Source: an uncultured Verrucomicrobiae bacterium (GTDB lineage: Bacteria; Verrucomicrobiota; Verrucomicrobiia; Chthoniobacterales; Chthoniobacteraceae). From it: a stretch of DNA of 64,000 bases. A program made the position numbers and the translations under genes. Below, piece by piece: positions 30,117 to 46,900 of this stretch. Each line of letters starts with the position of its first letter. Positions within the stretch are counted from its first letter, which is position 1. Under the pieces are notes generated by a model that worked only from the letters and a program-made list of their open reading frames with translations, had not been told where the DNA came from and ran no database searches. The stretch spans positions 192,001 to 256,000 of the forward strand of contig CAWIKF010000001.1 of the NCBI GenBank assembly GCA_963836755.1, written 5' to 3'.

Positions 30117-33100
30117 ATGAAATACAAGCAGTCCTTTGCTCTGAAGCTCCGCAGCCACTTTGCAGCCATCCTCGCCGCCGGCGCCGCGGTCAGCGTGTCC
30201 GACCACTCGGCGCACGCACTTAATACCGAGAATGACTACCTCAATGCCTCCACCTCGCTGAACACCCCTGCAAACTGGAGCCTCGGACATGTGCCAACCA
30301 GTTCGGAGGATGCGACCTTTGGCCTCAACTCGATTTCCAACGCCACGATCACGGGGGCCGATCTCATTTGGGGTTCTTTGGATCTCACCGCCAATAAGAC
30401 GATTTCCATCATCAACAACAGTTCCACTACGGATAGCAGCCTTACCCTGAGCGGCGGAACGGGCGACAGCGTGCTCGGGGCGAACGCCAACGATCTCATT
30501 TACGTCGCCAGCGGTGGAACCATCTCCATCAGCAATGGCGGCACGAAAGCTCTCAATCTTATCTTAGGTAAAAGCGGCAATTTCGAAGCTGTCGGAACGT
30601 TGACAATAAATTCCGTCATCTCGGATGGAGGCAATGCCTACGGCATCACGAAGACCGGCGCTGGCACGCTGACGCTTGGCGGTGCCGACACCTACACTGG
30701 CACGACCGCGATCAACAGCGGCACGGTGACAATAAGCAACACCGGCAGTCTGGCCAGCGGGAACAATGTGACCTTCGCCGGCACAGGTGCCTTTGGTGTG
30801 ACAGGAAAAACCGGTGGCAGCACGCAGACGCTCGGCACGCTGCTCAGCAGCGCAGGTGATAACACGGTGACTTCCACCTTCGGCACCGTGGGCACAACGC
30901 TGGCCATCGGCACCTATACGCGCTCGGCAGGGGCAACGACGAATTTTGTCGTCACCAACGGCGCCAACGGTTCGACCAACAAAATCACCTTGGGTAACGT
31001 CACACCGAACACGTTCATCAGTCCGGGCACGTTCTTTGGCGGCAGTTCTTACGCCTTCTACGACACTGGTGGCTTCGTGCGCGCTCTGGACTATACGAAT
31101 GACGCCGCGGCAGCGAATGCCACCACGCAGACGGGAGTCGCCACGGCTTTGACGACAACTGGAACGCCCGCGACGCAGAATGCGCAGTATGTGGGATCGA
31201 CGGGGACGGCTTCCACGGCCGCGAGCTCGACCACTGCCAGCACCACCCTTCCCGTCGCCGCGGGGACGGGGGTGAATTTCGCGCCCGGCGAGGCCATCAC
31301 CGGCACCGGAATCGCGAACAATACCTACGTCACGGCCGTCACCGGCGACACCCTCACCCTTTCGGCGAACGCGACGGTTGCGTCGGGCGCGACTGTAACG
31401 CCCTACAATGAAATCTCGGCCCAGCCGACACAGACGGTCAACACGCTCAACCTTTCGGGTGCTGGTGCCTCGGTGGCGCTGGCCTCCGGTGCGACGTTCA
31501 CCACGAACGGCATCCTGCGTTCGGGTGAAGGAGCGACGGGCGCGATCTCGACGATCACTGGCGGCACGTCGGTCACGGCGGGCGGCAGCACGGACTTCGT
31601 CATCGCCACGCCCGTTTCGACGGACATTTTGACAATCACCACCGCCGTGAATACAAACGGCGTCCTGCTGATGAAATCAGGCTTGGGGACGTTGAATCTT
31701 AACGGAGTGGTCAGCGGCAACGGCGGCGTAGTTCTCAATAGTGGAACTTTGAACCTAAGTGGCAGTAACACCTACTCCGGCGGCACCTTACTATACGGCG
31801 GAAGTTTGGGACAGATCGGCAACGCCACAGCCTTCGGAATTGGCCCTATTACGATCGGTGCACCCAATAGCGGAAACAACATCAGCTTTGCTATCGGCGG
31901 AAGCAACACCTACGCGAATGCCATTACGGTAAACGCGGGCGGGCAGCGCTATGTCTACACTGCCGGCAGTCCAACGTTCACATTCAGTGGGCCAATCACC
32001 TTGGTGGGCGGAGCGAACTTCTCGGTAGGCAGCGGCGGCGGCGGCAATACGGAAACCATCTCGGGGGGTATCACCGGCACCGGTAACTTCATCTCCGGAA
32101 GTCCGGCCGGCAACAGCAGAACGTCCAAAGTGACGCTATCGGGCGCTGCCATTAACATGACTGGCTACCTCGCCAATAACACGGCCGCGACCCTCGCCAA
32201 TGGCGGGTTTGGCTATGGATCAGACAGCGCTGCGGGCAGCAATACCACAGTGAGTGCGCAGATCGGCGCCAACGTGACCGCGTTGTATCAAAACTCGGCC
32301 ACCAATACGTTCATCCTCACCGGAGCGAGCAATCCGTTCTTCGGGGACACCATCGTTTCCGCAGGCACTTTGAACCTTCGTAACTCGACCACCTTGCAGA
32401 ACAGCGTGGTGAACTTCACCGGCGGTGCGGCGACCTTCGGCACGAGCACCACCGTGGGCCTTTCGTCCGTCACGCTCGGCGGCCTCGCAGGCTCCGGCAA
32501 CGTGAACCTAAACAACACGGTCACCGCTACGCCGGGAGCCGTGGCCTTGACCATCGGCAACAGCAATGCCAGCAACGGCAGCACTGCCAATCCGAACACG
32601 TTGAATCCGGTTTATTCCGGCATTCTCTCCGATGGCACCGCCACCGGAGCCAGTGTGACAAAGACCGGCACGAACACGCAGGAATTCTCCGGCGCGAACA
32701 CCTACACCGGCGGCACGACGATCAACCAAGGCAAGCTGCGAGTGACTAACACCACCGGCTCAGCCACCGGCACAGGCGACGTGGGCGTGACCGGGAGCGC
32801 CACGACCTTGAGCGGGACCGGTTTTGTCACCGGCAATGTCAATGTCAGCGCCAGCGGGCGGCTCGCACCCGGCACCAATACCACCGGCGCCAACAGCAAC
32901 TTCGGAGCGCCAAACCTTTTGACCCTCGCCTCGGGCAGCGGGACGACTCTTTCGCTCAATGGCGCCAACGCGGACTTCGATCTAAGCAGCACGGCGGGTG
33001 GGTCCAATGACAAGATTGCCACCAATGCGCTGAGCCTCACCGGCACGAATACCTTCACCTTCAACGAGCTCAATGGCACACTCGACACCACGAACACCTA

Positions 33101-33341
33101 CACCTTGGTAAATGGCAGCAACCCCGTGACCGGCTTCAACCCCGCGAGCTTCACCACCAATTTCATCAATACCAACGGCAGCGCGACCCTCTACACCCCG
33201 ACCTATTCGACGGACGGTAACAACCTGCTGGTCAGCTTTGCCGTCGTCCCCGAAGCCAGCACATGGGCGATGATGCTCGGCGGGTTTGGCACACTCATCG
33301 TTTTCCAGCGGATGCGCAGTCGCAAATTGGTGCGGGCGTAA
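30117..33341 (+). CDS. Surface protein A: autotransporter-associated beta-strand (PATR) repeats with PEP-CTERM-like tail
   Basis: Signal peptide MKYKQSFALKLR..AHA; KTGAGTLTLGGADTYTG repeats; tail VPEASTWAMMLGGFGTLIVFQRMRSRK. Confidence 0.9.
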   Translation: MKYKQSFALKLRSHFAAILAAGAAVSVSDHSAHALNTENDYLNASTSLNTPANWSLGHVPTSSEDATFGLNSISNATITGADLIWGSLDLTANKTISIINNSSTTDSSLTLSGGTGDSVLGANANDLIYVASGGTISISNGGTKALNLILGKSGNFEAVGTLTINSVISDGGNAYGITKTGAGTLTLGGADTYTGTTAINSGTVTISNTGSLASGNNVTFAGTGAFGVTGKTGGSTQTLGTLLSSAGDNTVTSTFGTVGTTLAIGTYTRSAGATTNFVVTNGANGSTNKITLGNVTPNTFISPGTFFGGSSYAFYDTGGFVRALDYTNDAAAANATTQTGVATALTTTGTPATQNAQYVGSTGTASTAASSTTASTTLPVAAGTGVNFAPGEAITGTGIANNTYVTAVTGDTLTLSANATVASGATVTPYNEISAQPTQTVNTLNLSGAGASVALASGATFTTNGILRSGEGATGAISTITGGTSVTAGGSTDFVIATPVSTDILTITTAVNTNGVLLMKSGLGTLNLNGVVSGNGGVVLNSGTLNLSGSNTYSGGTLLYGGSLGQIGNATAFGIGPITIGAPNSGNNISFAIGGSNTYANAITVNAGGQRYVYTAGSPTFTFSGPITLVGGANFSVGSGGGGNTETISGGITGTGNFISGSPAGNSRTSKVTLSGAAINMTGYLANNTAATLANGGFGYGSDSAAGSNTTVSAQIGANVTALYQNSATNTFILTGASNPFFGDTIVSAGTLNLRNSTTLQNSVVNFTGGAATFGTSTTVGLSSVTLGGLAGSGNVNLNNTVTATPGAVALTIGNSNASNGSTANPNTLNPVYSGILSDGTATGASVTKTGTNTQEFSGANTYTGGTTINQGKLRVTNTTGSATGTGDVGVTGSATTLSGTGFVTGNVNVSASGRLAPGTNTTGANSNFGAPNLLTLASGSGTTLSLNGANADFDLSSTAGGSNDKIATNALSLTGTNTFTFNELNGTLDTTNTYTLVNGSNPVTGFNPASFTTNFINTNGSATLYTPTYSTDGNNLLVSFAVVPEASTWAMMLGGFGTLIVFQRMRSRKLVRA

Positions 33342-33361
33342 ACGATTCCAAGCGAAACTCT

Positions 33362-33402
33362 AAAGCCGCCGCGTCATTTGCTTGGCGCAGCGGCTTTTTT
33401 TT
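33362..33402 (+). terminator. Intrinsic terminator after gene A
   Basis: AAAGCCGC...GCGGCTTT hairpin plus T-run. Confidence 0.8.
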
Positions 33403-33649
33403 CTGTGAGCAAAGGAGCCCTTTTCAAGCAGATGGGCGCGAGGAGGCACTTTGCGGACTTACCGCTCTTAACTCTCGCAAACTATCACATCCTAAGACCT
33501 GAAATAGCACACGAAAAAACATGCGATGGCCATCTTTGCCACTATTTTCCATACAGCCGAATGGCCGCCTTTGTCCGCCACAAACCTGTTTTCACTTCTC
33601 CTCAGACACAAAACAAAATCCCGTGAAAAAAACAAGTTCAGTTCGCCCC

Positions 33650-35479
33650 ATGAAAACCACCCGTCGCCGCACCTCCTTCATCCTTGCCGGTTCCATCAGC
33701 GCGTTGCTCTCCGTCCACTCCGCGCAGGCGATCATGGTAAGCAACACCGAGGATGATGTGCTCAATGGCAGCACCGATCTCACTGACCCCGCCTCCTACA
33801 ACAATGGGGCTCCCGGCACCACAAGCGACGTCACTTTTACGGCGCAGTCATACAGCCCCGCAACCTTTACCGTTCCTACAAACCTGAGCATCGGCACGCT
33901 GGATGATCTGGCCACCAACGCGCTGACCATCACTGGCGGCGGGAACTCCACCACCTTGACGCTCAATGGCGGCGCAAACTCCGTCGCCGGTGCCGATCCC
34001 GCCGATTTGATTTACGTTAAAACCTCCAACTTCACGATTGGCGCTGCTTCACCCACCATGGGTCTGGCCTTGGCCGCCTCCGGAAATTTCGACATCGCGG
34101 CTGGCACAACCACGATCAATTCGGTGATCTCCGACAGCGGCGGCGGATTCACCAAAACCGGCGCGGGCAAGCTAGTGCTTGCCAACAGCGGGAATACCTA
34201 CACAGGGCCGACCGCGATCACCGGCGGCGCGCTGAGCATCGCAGCTGAGGCCAACCTCGGGGCGGCCCCGGCATCATACGTGGCAAATCAACTGACGCTG
34301 GATGGGGGAACGCTTCAGCTTTCAGGAAACACGAGCACACAGAACTGGTCGGCGAATCGAGGCATCTATATCGGTGCGGGAGGTGGTGCCATTACTACTC
34401 CCGGCAACGATGTCCAGCATGTAAACTTCCAGGAAATCATTTCCGGCCCCGGCACGTTGACCTTGAGCCCGCGCGGAACCGGCACACGAGCGTTTATTTT
34501 GTCCGGTGCCAACACCTTCGGCGGGCTGATTATTGCGCAGAACGAGGTGGATGCAGCGAATAGCTCGGCCCTCGGTGCCGGATCGGTGCAGCTCGGCACG
34601 ACCAACAGTAATAACAATACTACGATTTATATTACTGCCAACGGTGCGAATATCACCAACAACATCACCGTCACGCCGGGTGGGACTCGCACCTTGGGAA
34701 TTAACTCAAGCGGCGGAACCAGCACATTCTCCGGCCCGATTTCTCTCACGGGAGGCACGGTCAATCCGACCCTTAATCTTGCTCAGCTGAACAACAACAG
34801 CACCCTCAACTTGACCGGCGGCATCACCGGCACGGGTAATGTCGCCTTTGCCGGCGGCATAGGCACGAGAAACAACGCAAATATAACGATCAGCGGTGCC
34901 GACGTGAACAACGTGGGCACCATCAGCAACCTCGACAGCGTCAGCTCGGGCACGAACACGATCAGCGCGAACATTGGCTCAAACGTCACAGGCATCATAC
35001 AAAATACCACCCACTCACCACTGGTCGTTTCAGGGGCGAACACTGCCTTCGCTGGCACAACCACGGTTACCCTTGGCACTCTTTCGACCAGTTCCGCGGG
35101 CACTCTCGGAAGTGGGAACGTGGCGGTCGCGGACACCGCTGGGGCGATCCTGACCTTGCAGAACACGGCTTCGATTGGCAGTTCGGCCATCCTCAGCTTC
35201 GGCACGAATTCAGCGATCAACATGAACTTTACCGGCGACGACACACTCGCCGGAATCACCGACACGACCACCTCGCAAATGCTCGCGCCCGGCACTTACA
35301 CGGCAGATCAACTCAATACCTTCTTCGGTGTCAGCTCCTTCGCGACCACCAATGGCGACCCAACGACCGCCACGTTCAGCGTCGTTCCCGAGGCGAACAC
35401 GTGGGCGCTGATGCTTGGCGGGTTTGGCACGCTGGTAGTTTTCCAGCGGATACGCCGCCGGAGCTCGCAGCGGGTGTAG
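33650..35479 (+). CDS. Surface protein B: PATR repeats with PEP-CTERM-like tail
   Basis: Signal peptide MKTTRRR..AQA; TKTGAGKLVL..NTYTG; tail VPEANTWALMLGGFGTLVVFQRIRRR. Confidence 0.88.
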   Translation: MKTTRRRTSFILAGSISALLSVHSAQAIMVSNTEDDVLNGSTDLTDPASYNNGAPGTTSDVTFTAQSYSPATFTVPTNLSIGTLDDLATNALTITGGGNSTTLTLNGGANSVAGADPADLIYVKTSNFTIGAASPTMGLALAASGNFDIAAGTTTINSVISDSGGGFTKTGAGKLVLANSGNTYTGPTAITGGALSIAAEANLGAAPASYVANQLTLDGGTLQLSGNTSTQNWSANRGIYIGAGGGAITTPGNDVQHVNFQEIISGPGTLTLSPRGTGTRAFILSGANTFGGLIIAQNEVDAANSSALGAGSVQLGTTNSNNNTTIYITANGANITNNITVTPGGTRTLGINSSGGTSTFSGPISLTGGTVNPTLNLAQLNNNSTLNLTGGITGTGNVAFAGGIGTRNNANITISGADVNNVGTISNLDSVSSGTNTISANIGSNVTGIIQNTTHSPLVVSGANTAFAGTTTVTLGTLSTSSAGTLGSGNVAVADTAGAILTLQNTASIGSSAILSFGTNSAINMNFTGDDTLAGITDTTTSQMLAPGTYTADQLNTFFGVSSFATTNGDPTTATFSVVPEANTWALMLGGFGTLVVFQRIRRRSSQRV

Positions 35480-35666: not shown

Positions 35667-35699
35667 AAAAAGCGCCGCAGGAGACTGCGGCGCTTTTTT
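35667..35699. terminator. Bidirectional intrinsic terminator
   Basis: AAAAAGCGCCGCAG-GAGA-CTGCGGCGCTTTTTT between convergent genes. Confidence 0.85.
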
Positions 35700-35790: not shown

Positions 35791-36495
35791 TCACCCTCTC
35801 ACCAGCACCGTCTGAATCGCACTCTCCACCCCCACGGCCGAATCCTTCAGATACGCCTGCCCCTGGATCTCCCACTCCTCCGGTTGGCCCGGCGTCGCGA
35901 TCGGGATGTGTAGCATCGCCGGCGTCGCCATGAAGCGGCCGAGATCACTCCACGTGCTCGTGCCCGCTTTGCGTCCTTGGAAATTCATCGCTGTGATCTG
36001 GCCATTCGCCTTGCGGAACTTCGCGCTGACCGTCGCCGTCGCCGTGCAAGTCACGCCAGTGATCACCGCCACGTAGCTGGTGGGATTAAAACTGCCGGCC
36101 GTCGCTTCCGTCCGCAGCGTATTTCCCTGCACGGCGGGATTGTAGCTCGTCGAGCTTTTCACTGCCTGCACCCATTTTTCGCGACGCGCCTCGATTCCCG
36201 CCAGCACTGCTGCGGGCGCAACCGGCATCGCGGGCACCGGTGGAACGACGGGTGCGGGTTGGTCAATCGCCCCGTCCAGGTAGGAGTGGATGTAGCCTGT
36301 GATGGAGGTCACGAAGCCTTCGTAGACATTCGGCAGCGTCCGGTAGAGATAGACCGCCATGGCCGCATCGGCGAGAATGGAGGTGAGTTGTGTGGCGGAA
36401 ACGCCGCAGGCCGTGAGCGTCGGTCCCTGGGTGGCGATGTTGGCCCACCAATCGGCGCGGCCTTCGTTGTTTGGGGAATAGTAACCTTGTGACAT
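35791..36495 (-). CDS. Uncharacterised 234-aa protein: helical N-domain, Pro-rich linker, probable FN3/Ig-like C-domain
   Basis: MSQGYYSPNNEGRADWWANI start after an A-rich leader; protein-like composition; beta-strand-rich C-terminus (W.DLG..ATP..PGQPEEWE...VGVES); no signal peptide. Confidence 0.75.
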   Translation of the reverse strand: MSQGYYSPNNEGRADWWANIATQGPTLTACGVSATQLTSILADAAMAVYLYRTLPNVYEGFVTSITGYIHSYLDGAIDQPAPVVPPVPAMPVAPAAVLAGIEARREKWVQAVKSSTSYNPAVQGNTLRTEATAGSFNPTSYVAVITGVTCTATATVSAKFRKANGQITAMNFQGRKAGTSTWSDLGRFMATPAMLHIPIATPGQPEEWEIQGQAYLKDSAVGVESAIQTVLVRG

Positions 36496-36579
36496 AGTTT
36501 TTTGTTCTTTCGTTTCTGTTGGGTTTTGCCACCCCGTCATGGGGCGGCTTTGGGCGGATTCTTACCTCCGCCGCCGCGA

Positions 36580-36610
36580 TGTCGAAACCTTTAGTGTTAA
36601 GATTTCGACA
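36580..36610. promoter_or_regulatory. Operator-like imperfect palindrome
   Basis: TGTCGAAACCTTTA-gtg-TTAAGATTTCGACA, 12 of 14 arm positions complementary. Confidence 0.5.
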
Positions 36611-36705
36611 CATTGGATTCGAACGGCTACAAAATCGTTCCAGCCGCCCACCGCATCCCGTGCCATCGCCGCTGGCAGCGAAACAGCCGGCGCACGGCAT
36701 CGATC

Positions 36706-36961
36706 GGTGACCACCAGACGGCGAATGGTCGCCACCCGACCGGAGATAGTGGCCACCTTTCTGGAATGGTGGGCACCGGACAGGAAATGGTGGCCACCAT
36801 CGCGGAATGGTGGGCACCTGCGAGCATTTGGTGGCCACTTTTTGCAAATGGTGGCCACCTGAGAGGTTTTGGTGGTCACCATTTTGGAAAGGTGACCACC
36901 GGGGACGAATTGGTGGCCACCTTTTAGAAATGGTGGCCACTATTTGGAAAAGGTGAGCACT
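36706..36961. repeat. Phased array of 13 palindromic GGTG-NN-CACC boxes, period 21/20 bp
   Basis: Box starts: 36706, 36727, 36748, 36768, 36789, 36809, 36830, 36850, 36871, 36891, 36912, 36932, 36952. Confidence 0.95.
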
Positions 36962-37350
36962 TTTCTCGAGCAATTCCAGCCTTTTACTCTGTTGAGCAGC
37001 ACGGGAGGAGGTTTCTCGGCCCCTTGGACCAGCCGATCTGAGTGCCAGGCGAGAAGAGGGGAGCGCACGCAAGCATCCGTTTACGCCGCGCATCGTCATG
37101 GCGACGATTGTCACACGTCCGTGCGCACTCGCCTGTGCTCGCCGAGCAGTCCCATCCCAAATTGCTGAGAATGCATATAAAAAGTCACAAAATAGAATTG
37201 GACGCCATTCGCAGCCGGATTATTTTCCCCGCGCTCGATCCCCTTTGTGCTGCTTTTCCCCGAACCTTTATCCCACACGAACCCGCGTAAACAGAGGCAT
37301 CGCGGTCATTTTTCAAGTGCCGGAGCCACATTTCCCGCGGCTCCGAAAAA

Positions 37351-37449: not shown

Positions 37450-40400
37450 ATGAACCAATCTTCGATCTCGAATTCCGTCTCCATCAACCTCTCAGCCTCC
37501 AAAAGCAGAATGAAATACAAGCAATCCTTCGCCCTCAAGCTCCGCAACCGCGTCGCAGCGGTCATCGCCACCACCGCCGCGATCACGATGTCCAGCCACT
37601 CGGCTCACGCGCAGAATACGGTGGACAATTACACCGGCACCACGACCGGAAACGTCACTACGCCTGGCAACTGGAGCTTGAACGCGGTCCCTGTCATTAC
37701 CAATGATGCCGTTTTCCCAGTCGGCGCCGCCACCGGCGTTAGGAATTTCAGCGTAGGCAACGGCGCCTCTGTGGGACCGAGCTTGGTGGTTGGTTCGCTG
37801 GACGATTTATCCACAGGAACCACGGTCACGATCCAGAACGTTACGACCTCTGCCTCCGCTGTCACCATTACCTTGGGCGGTGCGGGTAATCTTGGAAATT
37901 CTGTCAGCGGAACCGCCGCCGATTTGTTTTACGTTGCGACGGGCGGAACTTTCAACATTACGGGCACTGGCGGCACTGGTGCCACCCTCGGCCTCGTTCT
38001 CGGCCAATCGGGTAATTTTGATGTCGCCGGCACCTCGACCATCACTTCGATCATCAGCGATGGCGGAAACGCCTTTGCGATCACCAAAACGGGCGCTGGC
38101 ACCCTGACGCTCTCGGGTGTCAATACCTTCTCCGGCGGATTCACCGTCGGCGCGGGCACTGTGACTTTCGGCGGCAATGCTGCCAATCTGGGGGCCGGCG
38201 CGATCGGTCTCGGCATAGCCTCCGGCTCTACGAACGCGATCCTGCAGTATAATACGGGGGGGGTCAACACGTTCACTAATGCGGTCAATGTCAACGCAAC
38301 TTCCGGTGGGACGCTGGAAATCTTGAACAGTTCCGGTTCTGTAAACTTCTCGGGGCCGGTGACGCTAGCCAACAACCTGCTGTTGGTGAATACCAACGGC
38401 ACCACCACAAATACCCTGACGCTCAGCGGGAATATCACTGGCACGGGTAATATCACCGCCAGCGCTACGACTGGAGCGCCCATCATTCTTACTGGAACGA
38501 ACTCTTACATCGGCACCACGACCCTGACGGCGAACAACTTGTATGCGGAGAATACAGGAGCGACAAATGTCGATAAGGCACTCAGCACGGGCACAGTGAT
38601 TTTGAATGGCGGCAGTCTCTTTCTGAAAGCCGACGGCAGCGGCAATGCTCAAACGATCATCACGGGCGACGGGACGACGGGCAACAACGTCACGGTGGGC
38701 GGAAACACGACCATTGACGTCAATAAGCTGGTAGCGGCCAACACCGGAAATACTTTTGTGCTCAACAACCTGAGCATTGGCGCAAACACACTCAACGTCA
38801 CAGGCGGGAGCAGCTACGCGCTGAAGTTCGCGGGCACGACGACCTTGACGGGCAACGCCACATTCAGCCCCAGCACGGCGAACCTCACTTTGACCGGCGT
38901 TATCGGCGACGGCGGCAGCGGATTCACGCTCACGAAAACCGGAGCAGGCACACTGTCGCTAGCCGGCGCGAATACCTACAGCGGCTTGACCACGGTTTCC
39001 GCCGGAACGCTCTCGCTGGCGGGTGGCACCATTGCCAACAGCAACGTCAGCCTCGGTTCAGCCACCTTCCAGGTTCTGAATGATGGTGCAGGCAGCAATG
39101 GGACGATCAGTCTCGGCAATAACGTCACTGTTAATGGAGCGACTACGACGGATACCATCAATGTCGGCAACAACGGCAGCGGGAACACTGGCAATACTGT
39201 GGCGTTCGGCGCGTTGAGCAACGGAACACCCGCTCAAGGTAACGCGGTCACGATCAATTTTACCGGCGCCAATGGCTACTTGGAAAGCTTCAGCAGTCTG
39301 GCACTGACCGGCGGTGGGGGTCAAGGAACCACCTTAAATCCGACGAGCACCTCGGTCACCATCCTGGGCAATGTCACCAATCAGATTACCACCAATCCGC
39401 CGACGGGAAAATTTGACACTCTGGTCCTCAGCGGCACCAGCTCGGGCAATGCGATCAATGGTGTCATCGCCGACAACGCCAACTACACCTCGGTCGGCAA
39501 CGGAGACACTCGAGTCACCATGACCGGCACCGGCTCGTGGACGCTCGGCGGCGCGAACACCTACCACGGTCCCACGACCGTCAACAACGGCACTCTCAAG
39601 TTGGGTCTCACCAATGCCATTCCGACGGCCAGTGCGCTCACGGTTTCGGGCTCGGGTGCGGGAGTGACCGCCATTCTCGATTTGGCGGGCTTCGATGAGA
39701 CCAACAGCAGCCTGAGCTTGGGCGGCAGCACCGCTACCAGCGGCGCGACTGTCACGAACTCCACTGGCAGCAGCACGCTCAAACTCACGGCCGGTGCGAC
39801 TTATTCGGCCACCAACAATCCGCTGGGTGCCACGATTTCCACCACCACCCTCGACCTGAACGGCGCGGCGCAGACCTTTACCGTTGGCGACAGCACCACG
39901 GCGCCATTTGATCTCTCCATTTCCTCCGTCATTCAGAACGGCTCTCTCATCAAAGCAGGCTCCGGCGTCCTCGCTCTGAGCGGCGCGAATACCTATGCTG
40001 GGGGAACGTCGGTTACTGCCGGCACTCTCGACTTTCAAAAGACGGCGGCGAAGCCGGTGGCCGGAACCACCACCGTCTCCAGCGGCGCCACTCTGGGACT
40101 CGGGGTGGGAGGAGCGGGATTTTTTGGTGCGGCGGATGTGAATGCCTATCTGACGAATACACTTTCCGGCGTGAGCGCATCTCGGAATCTCGCGATCGAT
40201 ACGACAGCCGGTGACTTTAGCCTGGGAGGCCTCGCCCTCCCGAATGGTTTGCGCTCTATCGCCAAGCTGGGCGCCAATACCTTGAATCTGGGCGGGATTA
40301 CTCGCACTCTGGGGATTTTGAATTTGCCGAACGCGACCGGTGCGGTCACGACCACGAACAGCAATGACGCAAGCGGCATCCTCGGGCCTTGGGCGACCAT

Positions 40401-43400
40401 CGGCACCGGTGCATCGATCAGCTACGCGGTGGCCAACGGCGGCAGCACCCCCATCAGTGCGTTGCCTGTCGCCTCGCAGACGGGTCTAGGGAACGCAGGA
40501 GGAGGCACGGTGGACATCACGAACTTCATCGATAACACCGGCAGCAAAACATTCACGGCGAATGTGGCGGCCAATACTATCGAGAATAGCTTTGCCGGCG
40601 TGACGCTGGCCAACGGCGGCTTCAGCGTGACCACGAACGGCATCCTCGACCTGACCGGCACAACGTTCAGCGGGGCCGGACATATGAAGGCCGGTGCGAC
40701 CAAGGAACTCGACATCATCAACACGAACGTGACCACGACGATCAGCTCGGTCATCGAGGATTCGGCGTCTGGCCCATCGTCGTTGGTTTTTGCCGGCGTC
40801 GGCGGGGGCACCCTGGTTCTTGGTGGAACTACTAATACCTACACTGGCAAGACCTTGATCACCAACGGCACCATTTCCATCTCCGTTGAGGCTGCTCTCG
40901 GTGCTACGCCGGTTTCAGCCGTGGCTGACGAGATTACTCTCGATAACGGCACTCTCCTCGTGACGGGTTCGGGCAATCAAGTTATACTGACCGCAAACCG
41001 GGGGATCACCCTCGGAACCTACGGTGGAACTTTGAATCCTGGCTCCAACAATGCCAGCCTCACGGTGAATGGCGTCATCACCGGCTCTGGCTCGCTGACT
41101 ATTAATGGGAGTAACGCCAGCGGTCGCTTTTTTACTCTTGGTGGTGCGAATACTTACACTGGCGACACCAGTATTCAAAACTCTACCGTGCTGAATGTGA
41201 ATACTGCGACAGCCTTCGGCGTTGGCGGCACGGTGTCCGTTGGCTCCTCCGGAAGTAACCTCACTCCTAATATCAAGATCGGTAACTTCACTGTCGCAAA
41301 CGCGATTTCGGTGACCGCGGGTGGAGGGCGCAATTTCCTCGCCGTTGGAGCAACGAGCGGTCTGAGCGGTGCGATCGCATTGGTCGGTGGAGCGACGAAT
41401 CCCACCTTGAATCTGGGCATTAGCGGCAACAATGAGACGTTTAACATCACCGGCGGAGTGACCGGCACGGGGAACATTTCCCTGGGTTCTGGATCGTCTG
41501 CCGTGACTGGCGCGCAAATCAATCTCAGCGGGGGCGCGATCAACAATATCGGCACGATCACCAATGTGGGGGTCGTTACTTCGGGCACATACACCATCAG
41601 CGCCAATATCGGCTCGAATGTCACGGGCGTGATCCAGAACAGCAGTGCGGTTCCTCTGGTATTGAGCGGAGTGAACACCTACACCGGCGCGACCGCCATC
41701 AATAGCGGCAAACTCCGCTTGACCGGTTCGCTGACGAGCGCGGTAACGGTGGGCAATGACTCAGCCACCACGGCCATCTTCTCTGGCACGGGCACGACAA
41801 CGGGCTTGGTGACCACTTTCACCAATGGAGCGAACGTTGCCTACCTCGCCCCTGGCGTGAATGTCAGCGGCACCCGCACCGACTTCGGTGCAGCCGGCAC
41901 GCTGCACCTGAACAATGGGTTGACTATCGGCAACGGGACGCAGCTTGATTACGACTTGGGCACCTCGCAGGATTTGATCGCCGGCAGCGGCGCTCTTAGC
42001 CTTGGCACCGGAGTCACTGTCAACGTTGCCGATCTTGGTGGCCTGGCGACAGGCACCGCTTACACCCTGATCAGTGGCTTCGGCTCCCACAGCGGTGACG
42101 TGAGCACATGGACGGCGGCTGGCACGGCACCCGCCGGCACGACGGGCTACACCTTTGCTCTTAGCGGCAACGACGTGACGCTGAAATTCATCGGGGCGGC
42201 GGCGACTGCGACCAGCTACTCGCTCGCAGCGGTGGCGGCGAACAACAATGTGCTCGTCAACCACGCCACAGGAGTCACCAGCACGATCACCAACACCGGC
42301 ACCGGCACGGCGGATACGCTCGACTACACCGGCTTGAGCGCAAGCGCGACCGGCGGCACGATCACCGGGGCGGCGACCAATGGCGGCCCGCTGGCGCTAG
42401 GCGCGAGCGGCAGCAACTCCGGGTTGACCTACAACGCGGGAGCCACCAGCGGCACCTACGCAATTGCGGTCACCCCGACCGTGGGCACCGCCACCAATGA
42501 CACCATCGGCGGCAGCGCTTCCAACAGCGGCACGACGACACAGGCGGTGACGGTGTATGACGCCGCCTCGCTCAGTGGCAGCGGGCTCAACGTGGCCAAC
42601 GCCGCGGGAACTTTCCGCGCCTCGGCCGCGGTGACTTCCGAGAGCTTCAATGGCCAGGCTGGCTTCACGGCCGCCGGCGGCCTTGTTGGCACGCAGATCG
42701 ACGCAGGCACCTCCACGGCAGCGGCGACCTTCGACAGCACCGGCAAACTCAACGGCACCTATAACACCACCGCCACCATCGGCTTCAACGATGTGACCAG
42801 CGGCAGCGCAGCCATCGCAGGCGGCACGGGTGACAGCGCTACGGGCATCGCCCTTTCGGCGACGGTCACCGGCAAGACCAACAACGGCAGCGCCACGGTG
42901 CTCGCGGGACAAAGCTACGCGGGCTACGGATTGACCAGCTCCGGCTTTGCCCAGAGCCCGACCACGGCCACGCTCCTCGACGGTCACGCCGGCGTGGGCA
43001 ACACAGGCCCTCTCTCCGATGGGCTGGATCACACCGTCGTCATGGCCTTCTCGAACGGGGTCGGCGGCGAACCGAACGACGCGAGCAAGCTGAGCGATGT
43101 GCTGACCTTGACCGGCACCAACACCGACAAGTTCGTGCTGCAACTCACCTACACCGGCACACCGGCCCAAGGCACTCCGTTCCTCGCCTACTACAGCGCG
43201 GCCTACGGCGGCTATGTCAACGCGATTGCAGGCAACAGCAGCGGGAACATGACCCCGTTCGGCGGAGCCGCATACGGAGAAATCGCAGGCGCCTATGATC
43301 CGAACAACGACTTCGTGCTCGGCGACTACGGGTTTGATGCCGCCAACCACACCGCGTGGGCAGTGCTCGATCACAATAGCGACTACGAAGTCATCCCCGA

Positions 43401-43491
43401 GTCCAGCACTTGGGCATCACTCGCAGCCGGCTTCAGCACGCTCATCGTGTGGCAGCGCGGACGCCGCCGGAAGTCAGTGCGCCTGAGCTAA
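37450..43491 (+). CDS. Surface protein C (2013 aa): PATR repeats with PEP-CTERM-like tail
   Basis: Extended signal peptide; multiple KTGAGTL..GANTY repeats; tail IPESSTWASLAAGFSTLIVWQRGRRRK. Confidence 0.92.
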   Translation: MNQSSISNSVSINLSASKSRMKYKQSFALKLRNRVAAVIATTAAITMSSHSAHAQNTVDNYTGTTTGNVTTPGNWSLNAVPVITNDAVFPVGAATGVRNFSVGNGASVGPSLVVGSLDDLSTGTTVTIQNVTTSASAVTITLGGAGNLGNSVSGTAADLFYVATGGTFNITGTGGTGATLGLVLGQSGNFDVAGTSTITSIISDGGNAFAITKTGAGTLTLSGVNTFSGGFTVGAGTVTFGGNAANLGAGAIGLGIASGSTNAILQYNTGGVNTFTNAVNVNATSGGTLEILNSSGSVNFSGPVTLANNLLLVNTNGTTTNTLTLSGNITGTGNITASATTGAPIILTGTNSYIGTTTLTANNLYAENTGATNVDKALSTGTVILNGGSLFLKADGSGNAQTIITGDGTTGNNVTVGGNTTIDVNKLVAANTGNTFVLNNLSIGANTLNVTGGSSYALKFAGTTTLTGNATFSPSTANLTLTGVIGDGGSGFTLTKTGAGTLSLAGANTYSGLTTVSAGTLSLAGGTIANSNVSLGSATFQVLNDGAGSNGTISLGNNVTVNGATTTDTINVGNNGSGNTGNTVAFGALSNGTPAQGNAVTINFTGANGYLESFSSLALTGGGGQGTTLNPTSTSVTILGNVTNQITTNPPTGKFDTLVLSGTSSGNAINGVIADNANYTSVGNGDTRVTMTGTGSWTLGGANTYHGPTTVNNGTLKLGLTNAIPTASALTVSGSGAGVTAILDLAGFDETNSSLSLGGSTATSGATVTNSTGSSTLKLTAGATYSATNNPLGATISTTTLDLNGAAQTFTVGDSTTAPFDLSISSVIQNGSLIKAGSGVLALSGANTYAGGTSVTAGTLDFQKTAAKPVAGTTTVSSGATLGLGVGGAGFFGAADVNAYLTNTLSGVSASRNLAIDTTAGDFSLGGLALPNGLRSIAKLGANTLNLGGITRTLGILNLPNATGAVTTTNSNDASGILGPWATIGTGASISYAVANGGSTPISALPVASQTGLGNAGGGTVDITNFIDNTGSKTFTANVAANTIENSFAGVTLANGGFSVTTNGILDLTGTTFSGAGHMKAGATKELDIINTNVTTTISSVIEDSASGPSSLVFAGVGGGTLVLGGTTNTYTGKTLITNGTISISVEAALGATPVSAVADEITLDNGTLLVTGSGNQVILTANRGITLGTYGGTLNPGSNNASLTVNGVITGSGSLTINGSNASGRFFTLGGANTYTGDTSIQNSTVLNVNTATAFGVGGTVSVGSSGSNLTPNIKIGNFTVANAISVTAGGGRNFLAVGATSGLSGAIALVGGATNPTLNLGISGNNETFNITGGVTGTGNISLGSGSSAVTGAQINLSGGAINNIGTITNVGVVTSGTYTISANIGSNVTGVIQNSSAVPLVLSGVNTYTGATAINSGKLRLTGSLTSAVTVGNDSATTAIFSGTGTTTGLVTTFTNGANVAYLAPGVNVSGTRTDFGAAGTLHLNNGLTIGNGTQLDYDLGTSQDLIAGSGALSLGTGVTVNVADLGGLATGTAYTLISGFGSHSGDVSTWTAAGTAPAGTTGYTFALSGNDVTLKFIGAAATATSYSLAAVAANNNVLVNHATGVTSTITNTGTGTADTLDYTGLSASATGGTITGAATNGGPLALGASGSNSGLTYNAGATSGTYAIAVTPTVGTATNDTIGGSASNSGTTTQAVTVYDAASLSGSGLNVANAAGTFRASAAVTSESFNGQAGFTAAGGLVGTQIDAGTSTAAATFDSTGKLNGTYNTTATIGFNDVTSGSAAIAGGTGDSATGIALSATVTGKTNNGSATVLAGQSYAGYGLTSSGFAQSPTTATLLDGHAGVGNTGPLSDGLDHTVVMAFSNGVGGEPNDASKLSDVLTLTGTNTDKFVLQLTYTGTPAQGTPFLAYYSAAYGGYVNAIAGNSSGNMTPFGGAAYGEIAGAYDPNNDFVLGDYGFDAANHTAWAVLDHNSDYEVIPESSTWASLAAGFSTLIVWQRGRRRKSVRLS

Positions 43492-43515
43492 GGCGACAGT
43501 CGCAACCATTACTCC

Positions 43516-43556
43516 AAAAAGCGCCGCAGTTCGAAAGACTGCGGCTCTTTTTTTTT
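43516..43556 (+). terminator. Intrinsic terminator after gene C
   Basis: GCGCCGCAGT-tcgaaag-ACTGCGGCTC plus T-run. Confidence 0.85.
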
Positions 43557-43841
43557 GCGCTGAGTAAGAACGGCCTGCTCGCCGCTCTGAGCGCTGGCGA
43601 TTTTTACCGACTCTCTTTCCCACACGGTCCTTCCAATCGAGTAGCGCTGTTTTGTCCGGAAGATAACGGAAATGTCACAAAAAGGACGCTGACACAACGC
43701 CACAAAATCTCGTTTTCTTAGCGCTCGATCGCCGCGCGCCGCTTTTCTCGCCGACTTTTTATCTCCCGCGGAGCCTGTCTGGACAGAGTAATTGCGTCGA
43801 TTCCAGCCAAATCACCCATCGTTTCCGGTGTCGCCAAAAAA

Positions 43842-43896
43842 ATGTCACAAAAAAGTGAAAAAATTATTTGACACCCATTTTTCCCTCCGCTATCTT
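43842..43896 (+). promoter_or_regulatory. Sigma-70 promoter of gene D with upstream TCAC-N6-GTGA site
   Basis: TTGACA(43868)-17 nt-TATCTT(43891). Confidence 0.75.
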
Positions 43897-43940
43897 CCAT
43901 CCCAGCAGCCCCCATTTTAATTAAAAACCTCCCGTTTCAA

Positions 43941-46900
43941 ATGAACCAATCTTCCATCTCCAATTCAGTTTCCGCCAACCTCCTCATCAAAACCTCCAAA
44001 AACAAAATGAAATACAAGCAATCCTTCGCCCTCAAGCTCCGCAACCGCGTCGCAGCGGTCATCGCTACCACCGCCGCATTCTCGATGTCTGCGCAGGCGG
44101 CAGATACCACCACTTCTTCGTGGCTCGGCGGAACGACCAACTGGTCAACCTCCGCGGGGAACTGGAGCGCCGGCGTGCCTTCTGCAACGATCAGCGCGAA
44201 GTTTGACGGGACTTTCACGAACCAGCCGACCCTCACCGCGGCTTCTACGGCACAGGGAATCTGGTTGGCCACTGGCGATGCCCAGGATGTGACGATCAAT
44301 GCGGCTTCTGCCTTCACGCTCAGCTTGACCGGCACGGCCACCTTAAATAGTCAGACCAATGCCGGTATCATCATGACCGATACGGCGAATCACAACCTCA
44401 CGATCGGGCCGAACGTGAGCATCACGCTGTCCAACCCTACTGGTTTTTATAACAATGAAGCGACGGGTCTCCTGACGGTCTCTGGCGGTTTAAACACGAA
44501 TGCGAAAGCCCTGGCCATTGCTGGCACGGGTGCCACGACCCTCTCCGGTGTTGTTAGCGGCAGCGGTGCAATTACCATCAGTAACGGCGGCACGGTGACG
44601 ATTTCGAACATCACTGACTCCTATAGCGGCCAGCTCACCGTTCAGAACGGCAAGTTGAAGATCGATACGATCAATAACACGAGCGCGAATGGTGAATTGG
44701 GTAACAATGCGCTTGCTGTCATCCTGGGCAATACGGGCGGCCAGACCGGCACGCTGGACTACACCGGCGTCACGGCAGCGAGCAGTAAGAAATTCACGAT
44801 GGCCACCGGCGGCACCGGCGCTTTCCAGATCGATACAGCGGCGGCTGTCCTCACACTCAGCGGCGTGATTGACGGCGGCGGCGCGCTCACCAAGACAGGT
44901 GGCGACACCGCGAGCGTGCTCCTTCTCTCGGGTGGAAACTCCTACAGTGGTGGTTTGAATGTCGTCACCGGCACGGTGAAGCTCGGCAATACCACCGGCT
45001 CGGGTGCCGCGACAAACATCGTCTCCGTCGGCACGGGTGCGACTTTCGATATCGCGACTTTCTCGCCAACCATCGGCGGTTTGACCGGATTGGGAACGGT
45101 GACCAATAGCAGCACAGCGGGCACGCTGACCATCAACTCCACGACCACCAACACCTTTGGCGGCGTGATCACGGCAGTCACCCCTGCCAACCTCTTGCTG
45201 ACCAAAAGCGGTTCGGGAACTCAAATCCTGACCGGCGCGAACACCTACACTGGCGCGACCACCATCAATGCGGGCATTCTGCAATTGAGCGGCGCAACCG
45301 GTGCCTTGGCGCTTTCCGCCACGGCCCCGGCGTTGAACGGCGGCTCTTTGATCCTGGATAACACCGGTGCTGCCAGCAACAACAACAACCGTATCGCCGA
45401 TACACAGGCACTCGCGCTCAACGGCGGCAACTTCGTTTACAAAGGTTCCGATCAAGGGGCCACCAACTCCACGGAGACCATCCAAAACCTCAGCGGCACT
45501 GGCAATTCCACCATCACGGTCTCCTTCGGCGGCACGAACGGGGCTACTCTCACGGCGGGAACCTTTACGCACGCAGCGGGCAATGCCACCGATATGGTCA
45601 ACGGTGTAAACCTTGGCAAAAACTCGACGGATGCCGCGAGCTTCGCCCGTTTCATCAGCACTGCGCCGACTCTGACCGGCACGACGAACGCCCTCACGAC
45701 GGGCATCAATTCCGCTGTCAAGAACACGAAAATCGTTCCGTTCCTGGTGGGCGAAGCGACTTCGACCACTGGCGGCTTGGGAACGGCCACCGGCACGGCG
45801 AATACTTTTGTCACCTACATTGCCGGCAGTGGCTATCGCCCGTTGAACCCGACCGACGAGTTCACCAACAACGCCATCACGGCAGGCACTAACACTTACG
45901 TCACCACGGGGGCTACCAACACCGCCAATACCTCGATCAATTCCCTCGTCATCAATGGCGGTGACGTGACGGTCAACGACGGCTTCACCCTCACGAACAC
46001 CAGCGGCGCCTTGCTCTTTGCTTCGTCGAACAGCATCAAACCCAGCGGCACGACCGGCCTCTACACGGGTTCTGCGGAAAACCAGATCACGGTGAATTCC
46101 GCTGTGACCGGCACCATCAGCGCGATTGTGAGCGGCTCGCAAGCCCTCACCAAGAGCGGCGCGGGCACGCTGGTGCTCAGCGGGGCGAACACCTATAACG
46201 GCGCCACGACCCTCGCCGCGGGCACGCTGAACCTTAGCAATGCGCTGGCTCTGCAAAACAGCACCTTGACGTATAGCACCGCCGGCACATCGCTGGTATT
46301 CGATGCAGCGGGCGGCACCGCCTTTACCCTTGGTGGCCTGACCACGGGCAACAACATTCTTTTAGCTAATAATGGTTCAGCTGCAATCAACTTGACCGTG
46401 GGCGGCAACAACAGCTCGACGACCATTGGTGGTGTCCTCTCGGGCACGGGCGGCTCGCTGACGAAGACTGGCACTGGCACGCTGACTCTGGGTGCAGCGA
46501 ATACCTACACCGGCGCGACGGTCGTCAATGGGGGCAAACTCTACCTGCAAAATGGTGCGACGCTCAAGTTCAGCTCCTCTGTCACTGCGACCGGAACCGG
46601 CTTGCTCGCGATGAACAACGGCAGTGAAAGCGGCCAGTTTGCGGCGGGAGTGGTAATCCAGGGCACTGGTGGCTTTAGCAACGAGATCAACAACCCGAAT
46701 ACCAACGTAACTTTAGACCGGGACAATACTTATACCGGGCAGACGACATGGGGATCTCGAGGTGTCACCGCAGCGGGCGTGGTCTCAAAATACGACGTCA
46801 GCGGCAACCAGATCAGCGGTGCCTTTGGCGTCAATTCAAAGATTAATTTTGCCGCCCAGCCGTCTACGTTGCTTTTAAGCGGCAATAACAACCAGGTTGG

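What the first reader, a model, noticed from the sequence alone, without database searches (positions are those of the whole stretch)
35791..36961. Candidate undescribed system: repeat array, operator, leader hairpin and orphan helical/FN3-like protein
Seen on the minus strand, in order: the 13-box array, a 14-bp-arm palindrome, a GC hairpin, an A-rich leader, a 234-aa cytoplasmic ORF and a terminator. The 1.3-kb unit is antisense to, and wedged between, surface-protein paralogues. The protein has a Trp-containing N-terminal helical part, a Pro-rich linker, an ARREKWVQAVK...Y helix and a beta-rich C-domain; I recognise no nuclease, HTH, Nop or Cas motif. I recall similar uncharacterised proteins in PVC and Bacteroidota genomes, but this is unverified. 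Inference: a one-gene, one-array module in which the protein binds the array DNA or RNA, or the array controls its expression.
Basis: partly seen in the sequence, partly recalled or inferred. Interest (0 to 1): 0.75.

Follow-up and report, generated by a model that had tools for sequence, protein, structure and literature searches.

The report
Gene-linked two-turn DNA arrays that spread
A soil bacterium carries about sixty short tandem arrays that keep a fixed 20-21-base spacing while their sequence differs freely; about a third sit upstream of small unnamed helical genes like this one, whose predicted dimer likely binds them, and others lie between genes or in frame inside housekeeping enzymes.

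Summary
The array, promoter region, 234-aa gene and terminator are real. This is one copy of a genome-wide system, not a lone module. The genome (Chthoniobacterales, judged from homologues) holds about 64 arrays with a 20-21 or 41-42-bp period in 42 unrelated sequence types: 22 upstream of small helical(±FN3) genes, 38 orphans, and 4 in frame inside alaS, nrdJ, ispG and an RND pump. All 7 paralogues have an array, as do 33 of 43 homologues elsewhere, nearly always with a different unit. A 74%-identical paralogue keeps both flanks but has an unrelated array body. One alaS loop holds unrelated in-frame arrays in six genomes, all carrying the gene family. The 'operator' is a shared regulon site overlapping a sigma70-like promoter downstream of the array. 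The protein has an unmatched helical domain plus an FN3 domain and is predicted to self-associate. Best reading (0.35): phased DNA binding platforms read by the cassette's own dimer, with arrays copied elsewhere by an unknown route. No binding or expression data exist. This scan already reported the array-plus-FN3-gene pairing in other genomes; my paper searches found no description.

The parts
35667..35698 (.). Bidirectional intrinsic-terminator-like hairpin (14-bp stem, 4-nt loop) between this gene and the convergent PATR gene
35791..36495 (-). 234-aa gene (P0001): helical N-domain (residues 1-132) plus FN3-like C-domain (135-234). No Pfam, NCBIfam, PHROG or PADLOC family. Predicted to form a two-fold homodimer through helix 46-75 and residues 96-107
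36496..36527 (-). A/C-rich unstructured leader before the ATG
36528..36548 (-). GC-rich 8-bp hairpin at the 5' end of the predicted mRNA; largely kept in the paralogue's leader
   Evidence: fold -17.8 kcal/mol; leader 84 of 110 positions identical to paralogue P0002
36558..36585 (-). Sigma70-like promoter match TCGACA-16-AAGAAT (9 of 12), also present in the paralogue; function inferred
   Evidence: 2 found, 0.7 expected, so weak on its own; conservation
36580..36612 (-). Palindrome overlapping the -35 box. Its conserved core (36590-36612, TGT-N12-ACA geometry) occurs 4 times in the genome, once before a PEP-CTERM-type gene with no array; likely a host regulator site
36706..36961 (.). Array of 13 palindromic 10-bp boxes at alternating 20/21-bp spacing (41-bp dimer period)
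36956..37000 (+). Conserved distal flank containing TTACTCTG (36984-36991), a motif that flanks many unrelated arrays of this genome
   Evidence: 33 of 45 positions identical to the paralogue's flank

Best explanation
The locus is one copy of a multi-copy cassette (phased array, host-regulated promoter, small helical-FN3 gene, terminator), and the array likely works as a double-stranded DNA platform whose palindromic boxes, two helical turns apart, would be bound on one face by the cassette's own predicted dimer to tune the promoter beside it. Shown: the anatomy, the gene-array coupling, the fixed 20-21-bp period with free sequence, unrelated array bodies between conserved flanks, and copies of gene-linked array types between genes and in frame in housekeeping genes. 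Predicted: a two-fold homodimer. Inferred and untested: that the protein binds the array, that binding regulates the gene, and how arrays are copied (no reverse transcriptase was found; two Y1/HUH-family hits exist, with no shown link).
For: Coupling: 7 of 7 paralogues, 33 of 43 homologues against 1 of 43 downstream controls, and 22 of 64 arrays precede small helical(±FN3) genes. Geometry: best lags of 61 arrays are 21 (24), 42 (23), 41 (8), 63 (5) and 62 (1). There is no autocorrelation at lags 7, 14, 10 or 11, and periods of 20 and 41 break the reading frame. 44 of 61 arrays score 0.45 or more for self-complementarity, against a control 95th percentile of 0.40 and maximum of 0.45 in 300 random segments. 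Nearly every gene has a private unit: 42 unit types among 64 arrays, and 7 of 12 multi-member types hold exactly one gene-linked copy. One host regulator would not easily read so many types; 4 strong sigma54-activator hits exist. Self-association: score 0.50 against best control 0.00, a mark reached by 20 of 30 solved homodimers and 1 of 23 monomers; the runs agree in at least 52% of contacts and partner pLDDT is at least 80. The array lies upstream of a conserved sigma70-like promoter here. Genomes with an in-frame alaS array carry the gene family in 5 of 5 cases, against 6 of 22 without one (Fisher p=0.006; kin are not independent).
Against: The protein is not basic (pI 6.7, K+R 15, D+E 15; most family members pI 4.8-6.7) and has no recognised DNA-binding fold. 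A 74%-identical paralogue has an unrelated array body (119 of 230 identities, shuffled 117±5), which is hard to square with strict sequence recognition. One clade keeps the gene without an array (6 of 43), as does at least one intact member of another helical-FN3 family in this genome. The array lies downstream of the shared operator motif at C2:2229027, so its place relative to the promoter is not fixed. No sister arrays of the alaS inserts were found in G265, G190 or G070, so the master-daughter pattern is shown only for this genome.
Confidence: 0.35

Rival explanations
1. The array is an enhancer-like or architectural platform for host proteins (a nucleoid-associated protein or an activator), and the gene product is unrelated to DNA, for example a non-classically exported or envelope-linked helical/FN3 protein co-regulated with the neighbouring surface proteins.
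For: The operator core is shared with a PEP-CTERM-type gene and, more loosely, a prepilin-type gene. The gene sits among PATR/PEP-CTERM genes. FN3 domains are typical of surface proteins (own knowledge). Several family genes have sigma54-type -24/-12 matches downstream of the array, one with TTACTCTG in between. The same motif lies inside a 74-copy MITE of G070 and just after a tRNA gene in G232, as a host-factor site would. The protein is not basic.
Against: No sigma54 match at this locus and only 2 of 43 homologue leaders have one. 42 unrelated unit types in one 3.2-Mb genome. TTACTCTG occurs in only 1 of 43 homologue upstream regions elsewhere.
Confidence: 0.27
2. The arrays are selfish minisatellite elements (BrickBuilt- or REP-like) spread by a host or trans-acting transposase, and the gene travels with them as a passenger or helper without reading them.
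For: 38 orphans and 4 in-frame copies. Shared end motif in 19 of 31 genomic copies, while single-mismatch variants are near arrays in only 1-4% of cases. Inverted end motifs in some orphans, several of which start right at a stop codon. The same alaS loop also takes palindromic inserts in other genomes. Two Y1-family hits in the genome.
Against: A selfish element should keep its sequence and end motifs. Here the period is kept, the sequence is not, and most arrays lack the end motif. It does not explain why arrays sit upstream of one gene class in dozens of genomes. No target-site duplication or exact empty site could be defined.
Confidence: 0.2
3. The array is transcribed and processed into short RNAs that the protein binds (TIGR-like guide RNA or type III antitoxin-like).
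For: The box-spacer-box architecture has two alternating spacer lengths. Both strands fold far better than shuffles (z -8.3 and -9.6). In some loci the array ends 60-90 bp from the start codon.
Against: The folding follows from palindromic boxes and is strand-neutral. No Rfam family reaches its cut-off. No box C/D motif (sequence), no Nop or nuclease match. The likely promoter is downstream of the array here. Units are conserved in length, not in structure.
Confidence: 0.1
4. The arrays encode 7-residue-repeat leader peptides.
For: 21 bp equals 7 codons. In-frame copies exist in four genes. Gene-linked arrays have more stop-free frames on the sense strand (34 against 20 over 22 arrays).
Against: This array and 8 of 61 have a 41-bp period that shifts frame. 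Three orphans mix 20- and 21-bp units. The encoded repeats share no sequence across loci.
Confidence: 0.05

Closest known systems
Iteron and centromere-like arrays bound by their own adjacent gene product (plasmid Rep iterons; parC/sopC) - recalled from own knowledge, not tested
   Same: Tandem, helically phased sites upstream of a small gene, doubling as a possible operator, with specificity differing between relatives.
   Different: Chromosomal, more than 20 copies per genome, no Rep/ParA/ParB/ParR match, no hits in the plasmid or phage collections, and arrays also occur as orphans and in frame in genes.
BrickBuilt minisatellite MITE of Porphyromonas gingivalis (PMC4596501; abstract and outline read)
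   Same: Tandem units of similar size (23 nt) with leader/tail ends, about 19 dispersed copies.
   Different: BrickBuilt is one sequence family, always intergenic, with no partner gene named in the abstract. Here there are 42 unit types with a 20-21-bp period, a coupled gene class and in-frame copies.
REP/RPE palindromes inserted in frame, including in Opitutus terrae (PMC3733652; passages read)
   Same: Dispersed repeats, some inserted in frame in housekeeping genes of Verrucomicrobia; the alaS loop takes both kinds of insert.
   Different: REPs are single or paired hairpins with a conserved GTAG/CGTC tag tied to RAYT transposases. These are 10-16-unit phased arrays with no conserved tag, and the partner gene has no transposase match.
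TIGR-Tas (PMC12045711; passages read)
   Same: One gene beside a compact array of alternating repeats and short spacers whose sequence varies between loci; dimeric protein.
   Different: TIGR has 36-nt units, box C/D motifs and a Nop-domain protein. Here the unit is 20-21/41-42 bp, there is no box C/D motif and the protein is helical plus FN3.
hagB region of P. gingivalis (recalled from memory: a helical protein gene said to have 42-bp repeats upstream)
   Same: If the recollection is right, a signal-less helical protein preceded by 42-bp repeats.
   Different: Not verified: two paper searches found nothing, and no protein scanned matched that family in Pfam.

Membership tests
TIGR-Tas | Nop-domain protein | tested here: inconclusive
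   No Pfam Nop hit. Fold searches list only FN3 chains for residues 135-234. The N-domain has no Foldseek match, and the wide structural search of the N-domain could not be run.
TIGR-Tas | 36-nt dual-repeat units with box C/D motifs | tested here: not met
   Units are 20/21 (41) bp with palindromic GGTGGCCACC boxes; definition from PMC12045711.
TIGR-Tas | Array processed into small RNAs | not testable with these tools
   No RNA run holds the stretch.
CRISPR-Cas | Repeats of 24-48 bp with unique spacers of similar length, and Cas genes | tested here: not met
   10-bp boxes with 10-11-bp linkers; no Rfam CRISPR repeat; the gene matches no Pfam, NCBIfam or PADLOC model.
Type III toxin-antitoxin (ToxIN/TenpIN/CptIN) | Promoter, then 34-57-nt pseudoknot repeats, then terminator, then endoribonuclease toxin (recalled) | tested here: not met
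   Period 20-21; promoter-like site downstream of the array; no Rfam antitoxin or toxin-family match.
MITE (BrickBuilt type) | Terminal inverted repeats | tested here: inconclusive
   Some orphans have inverted TTACTCTG-like ends; most arrays have one or none; this array has the motif on one side only.
MITE (BrickBuilt type) | Target-site duplication and an empty site in relatives | tested here: inconclusive
   Empty loops exist in alaS, nrdJ and ispG orthologues, but relatives are too distant to define junctions.
REP/RAYT (REPIN, BIME) | GTAG/CGTC-tagged hairpin unit and a linked HUH/Y1 transposase | tested here: not met
   The unit has no such tag; the two Y1 hits of the genome lie elsewhere; the linked protein has no Y1 match.
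Iteron/centromere arrays | Helically phased direct repeats | tested here: met
Iteron/centromere arrays | Adjacent Rep or partition proteins on a replicon | tested here: not met
   Neighbours are PATR surface-protein genes; no plasmid or phage hits for a family member.
Iteron/centromere arrays | Cognate protein binds the repeats | not testable with these tools
   Needs EMSA or ChIP.
Sigma54 enhancer (UAS-IHF-promoter) | -24/-12 promoter downstream of the array | tested here: not met
   No match at this locus. Matches at 3 other array-linked genes in that scan (C1:654954, C2:763489, C2:1470100) and in 2 of 43 homologues.
Heptamer tandem repeats (STRR-like) | 7-bp base period | tested here: not met
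   Mean autocorrelation 0.24 at lag 7 and 0.26 at lag 14, against 0.61 at lag 21.
Fibronectin type III fold | Seven-stranded beta sandwich | tested here: met

The most novel reading that the evidence does not exclude
A new kind of self-propagating bacterial element: a superfamily of small helical(±FN3) dimers, each paired with its own two-turn-phased DNA array, in which the protein acts as reader and ruler. It fixes the 20-21-bp period while array bodies are rewritten between conserved flanks and seeded elsewhere, even in frame into essential enzymes such as alanyl-tRNA synthetase, with no transposase or reverse transcriptase in the cassette.
Probability: 0.18. Interest if true: 0.9.

Novelty: categorically new. 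Interest (0 to 1): 0.72.

Why it matters
Known bacterial repeat systems keep a sequence (REP, CRISPR repeats, BrickBuilt). This one keeps only a length, two turns of DNA, across 42 sequence types in one genome and across dozens of genomes, and stays tied to one unnamed class of genes. If the protein reads the array, it is a large natural set of orthogonal dimer/operator pairs with an unmatched helical fold. If it does not, something else writes fixed-period arrays and places them in frame in essential genes. This genome makes the question testable: it offers a 74%-identical protein pair with unrelated arrays between conserved flanks, so a single cross-binding experiment separates the main models.

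Tried and rejected
No family match for P0001 in Pfam, NCBIfam, PHROGs or PADLOC. No solved-structure relative by sequence. The ESM Atlas gave only unnamed Verrucomicrobiota clusters and an FN3 lead on 11% of members. The N-domain model (pLDDT 95) has no Foldseek PDB match; the wider structural search of that domain and the search of protein representatives never ran, so a distant known fold and the family's full range stay open. BFVD gave only FN3 matches. No phage or plasmid hits for one family member; a viral-contig scan with the broad alignment could not be built. No Rfam match at cut-off. No RNA holder listed, which says nothing about expression. No reverse transcriptase found in this 96%-complete genome. 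A sigma54 promoter at this locus was rejected. A 7-bp base period was rejected. A 10.5-bp A/T bending signal is not general: stronger than the 21-bp signal in only 20 of 61 arrays. TTACTCTG as an IHF site fits the recalled consensus only loosely; as a TTAC-N3-GTAA palindrome, 4 of 12 copies are near arrays; its reader is unidentified. Two 'arrays' inside CheB/CheR-like genes are ordinary heptad coiled coils. No sister copies of the alaS arrays were found in three draft genomes. The same-genus genome G265 is too distant to give an empty site for the window locus. Paper searches that found no description.

Full report
OBSERVATION. On the minus strand lie a 13-box array (36706-36961), a palindrome (36580-36610), a GC hairpin (36528-36548), an A-rich leader, a 234-aa ORF (35791-36495) and a terminator-like hairpin (35667-35698). 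Twelve boxes are within one mismatch of GGTGGCCACC; the window has 14 such matches against 1.66 expected. The 13th box has three mismatches but is in phase. The palindrome has 12-bp arms with one mismatch, not 14 clean pairs. The flanking genes are PATR-repeat surface proteins on the other strand. Named homologues come from Chthoniobacterales and other Verrucomicrobiota. The one run holding about half of the stretch's sampled words is a soil metagenome, which may be the window's own source. A contig from a second run of that study covers 36632-36886 with 9 substitutions and no gap.

THE GENE-ARRAY LINK. A profile finds 7 family members in the genome (6 intact, 1 split across frames), all with a 21- or 41/42-bp array upstream. 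Only 77 of 2929 genes from my own rough gene calling have such a signal upstream. In other genomes, 33 of 43 non-redundant full-length homologues have one, against 1 of 43 downstream regions and 4 of 43 for nine control lags. Two loci were dropped for short upstream sequence, and partial matches were filtered out. Six of the ten negatives form one clade; the other four score 0.49-0.54 against a 0.55 threshold. One positive locus (L033) comes from genome G173, which is marked unpublished; the 33 of 43 count and alignments A2 and A3 include it. The units are unrelated between loci. The clearest case is paralogue P0002 (74% identical): the leader is 84 of 110 identical and the distal flank 33 of 45, but the array body matches no better than shuffled sequence (119 of 230 against 117±5).

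A GENOME-WIDE SYSTEM. An unbiased TRF scan shows that long tandem arrays in this genome have almost only periods 20, 21, 41, 42, 62 or 63 (126 overlapping rows, against at most 2 for any other period). My detector flagged 75 regions. I dropped 11 by inspection; two were checked and are coiled-coil coding sequence, the others were weak, coding or of another period and were not checked one by one. The 64 kept fall into 42 unit types: 22 upstream of small helical or helical-FN3 genes, 38 orphans and 4 in frame in genes (labels assigned by me). Homology between the different helical families and P0001 is not shown; the links are weak or absent. Of 12 unit types with several copies, 7 have exactly one gene-linked copy plus orphan or in-frame copies, 2 have two gene-linked copies and 3 have none. 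The window's array type has three orphans that share its distal flank. There is no 7-, 10-, 11- or 14-bp autocorrelation, and 44 of 61 arrays scored are self-complementary at or above the maximum of 300 random segments.

IN-FRAME COPIES. Arrays sit in frame in alaS, a ribonucleotide reductase (nrdJ), ispG and an RND pump gene (gene names recognised from sequence, not from a family scan). The alaS and ispG arrays share their units with two gene-linked arrays. In ispG the array is absent from the 10 other orthologue loops parsed, of 11 fetched. In nrdJ it is present in 1 of 30 loci. In alaS the same loop holds a 21/42-bp array in 4 of 30 loci fetched (of 41 genomes matched; one of the four is weak at 0.60), non-periodic inserts in 4, and is empty in the rest. 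Two more genomes from a separate query also have one. The six units are unrelated by inspection. All 5 other genomes with an alaS array carry the gene family, against 6 of the 22 tested (of 26) without one (p=0.006; related genomes, so the p value overstates). Against a general master-daughter rule, no sister of the alaS array was found in G265, G190 or G070; these are draft assemblies.

FLANKING SIGNALS. TTACTCTG (window 36984-36991) flanks arrays of unrelated units: 19 of its 31 genomic copies lie within 130 bp of an array region, against 1-4% for single-mismatch variants. Its side and orientation relative to the gene vary. It is not general: 1 of 43 homologue upstream regions has it, and elsewhere it occurs in a 74-copy MITE and beside a tRNA gene. 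I read it as a host-factor site of unknown identity. The 'operator' core occurs four times: here, at P0002, upstream of the array of another helical-FN3 gene, and before a PEP-CTERM-type gene with no array. It is therefore likely a host regulon site. It overlaps a sigma70-like match, TCGACA-16-AAGAAT, that is kept in P0002, which would leave the array outside the mRNA. Other family genes have sigma54-type matches; this one does not.

MECHANISM. Shown: fixed period, free sequence, tight coupling to a gene class, dispersal including in-frame insertion. Inferred: the period reflects two turns of B-DNA (20-21 bp; the 20- and 41-bp units exclude a codon rule), and the most economical reader of so many private palindromic units is each cassette's own dimer, which would line one face of the helix next to the promoter (0.35). 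A host-read platform with an unrelated gene product (0.27) and a selfish minisatellite with a passenger gene (0.20) remain serious rivals; RNA-guide (0.10) and leader-peptide (0.05) models fit poorly. How arrays are rewritten and copied is unexplained: no reverse transcriptase was found, and the two Y1-family hits are unlinked.

COMPARISON AND NOVELTY. It is not TIGR-Tas (PMC12045711, passages read), CRISPR, type III toxin-antitoxin or REP/RAYT by the features tested. It works most like iteron or centromere arrays (recalled) and spreads like BrickBuilt (PMC4596501, abstract and outline) or in-frame REP/RPE elements (PMC3733652, passages). Five paper searches found no description; the library omits most subscription journals, and I read no supplements. 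A recalled report of 42-bp repeats upstream of P. gingivalis hagB could be an early sighting and was not verified. Earlier notes of this scan describe the array-plus-FN3-gene pairing in at least seven other genomes; they are unchecked leads, not support. What this locus adds is the near-complete census, the unrelated array body between conserved flanks, the shared end motif, the recurrent in-frame alaS arrays and the dimer prediction.

Noticed in passing
L090 (G000:C1:58953-62516, alaS): Besides the 21-bp array, this alaS reading frame carries palindromic REP-like inserts and an in-frame Y1/HUH transposase-like segment (Pfam Y1_Tnp hit at C1:60318-60581), making it about 1190 aa.
   Followed up: partly
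L062-L089 (G070, for example L067 and L079): A 145-bp MITE with 17-bp terminal inverted repeats, 74 pattern matches in the genome, mostly at contig ends; it contains the TTACTCTG motif internally.
   Followed up: partly
L060 (G232:C6:202490): TTACTCTG directly follows a tRNA-like gene and precedes what looks like an integrase start, suggesting an attachment-site context (read by eye).
   Followed up: no
window 43792 (- strand): A second exact TTACTCTG lies in the intergenic region between two PATR genes, with no array beside it.
   Followed up: no
window 30117-35479 and 37450-49997: Four tandem PATR-repeat surface-protein paralogues with PEP-CTERM-like C-termini; 13 such genes in the genome by a rough pattern. 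Several arrays and family genes lie next to them (C2:1904311, C2:709161, C2:2230073).
   Followed up: partly
G000:C2:765050-766066: A tyrosine-recombinase gene resembling an integron integrase (recalled, not scanned) ends directly at a near-perfect 41-bp array that precedes a 348-aa helical-FN3 gene with a sigma54-type promoter match.
   Followed up: no
G000:C2:93424-94164: A GIY-YIG domain gene (Pfam E 1.3e-4) ends directly at the array that precedes a 317-aa helical gene.
   Followed up: no
L018, L020, L023, L024, L025, L029: A clade of 218-226-aa homologues with no array, following the neighbouring gene through a short TTGAC-N18 promoter-like stretch; a natural control for binding tests.
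   Followed up: partly
G000:C2:2222738 and C2:2229911: The operator core or a looser version precedes a prepilin-type gene and a PEP-CTERM-type gene, hinting at a surface-structure regulon.
   Followed up: partly
L106, L151 (G303): Short heptamer-like inserts in the same ispG and nrdJ loops, a different repeat class using the same tolerant sites.
   Followed up: no
L005 upstream region: The first codons of the gene and its ribosome-binding region appear duplicated just upstream of the intact gene.
   Followed up: no
G000:C1:615820-617184 and C1:273666-274680: A REP-like palindrome sits between array and gene in two related cassettes; the second seems to have lost most of its helical gene.
   Followed up: no
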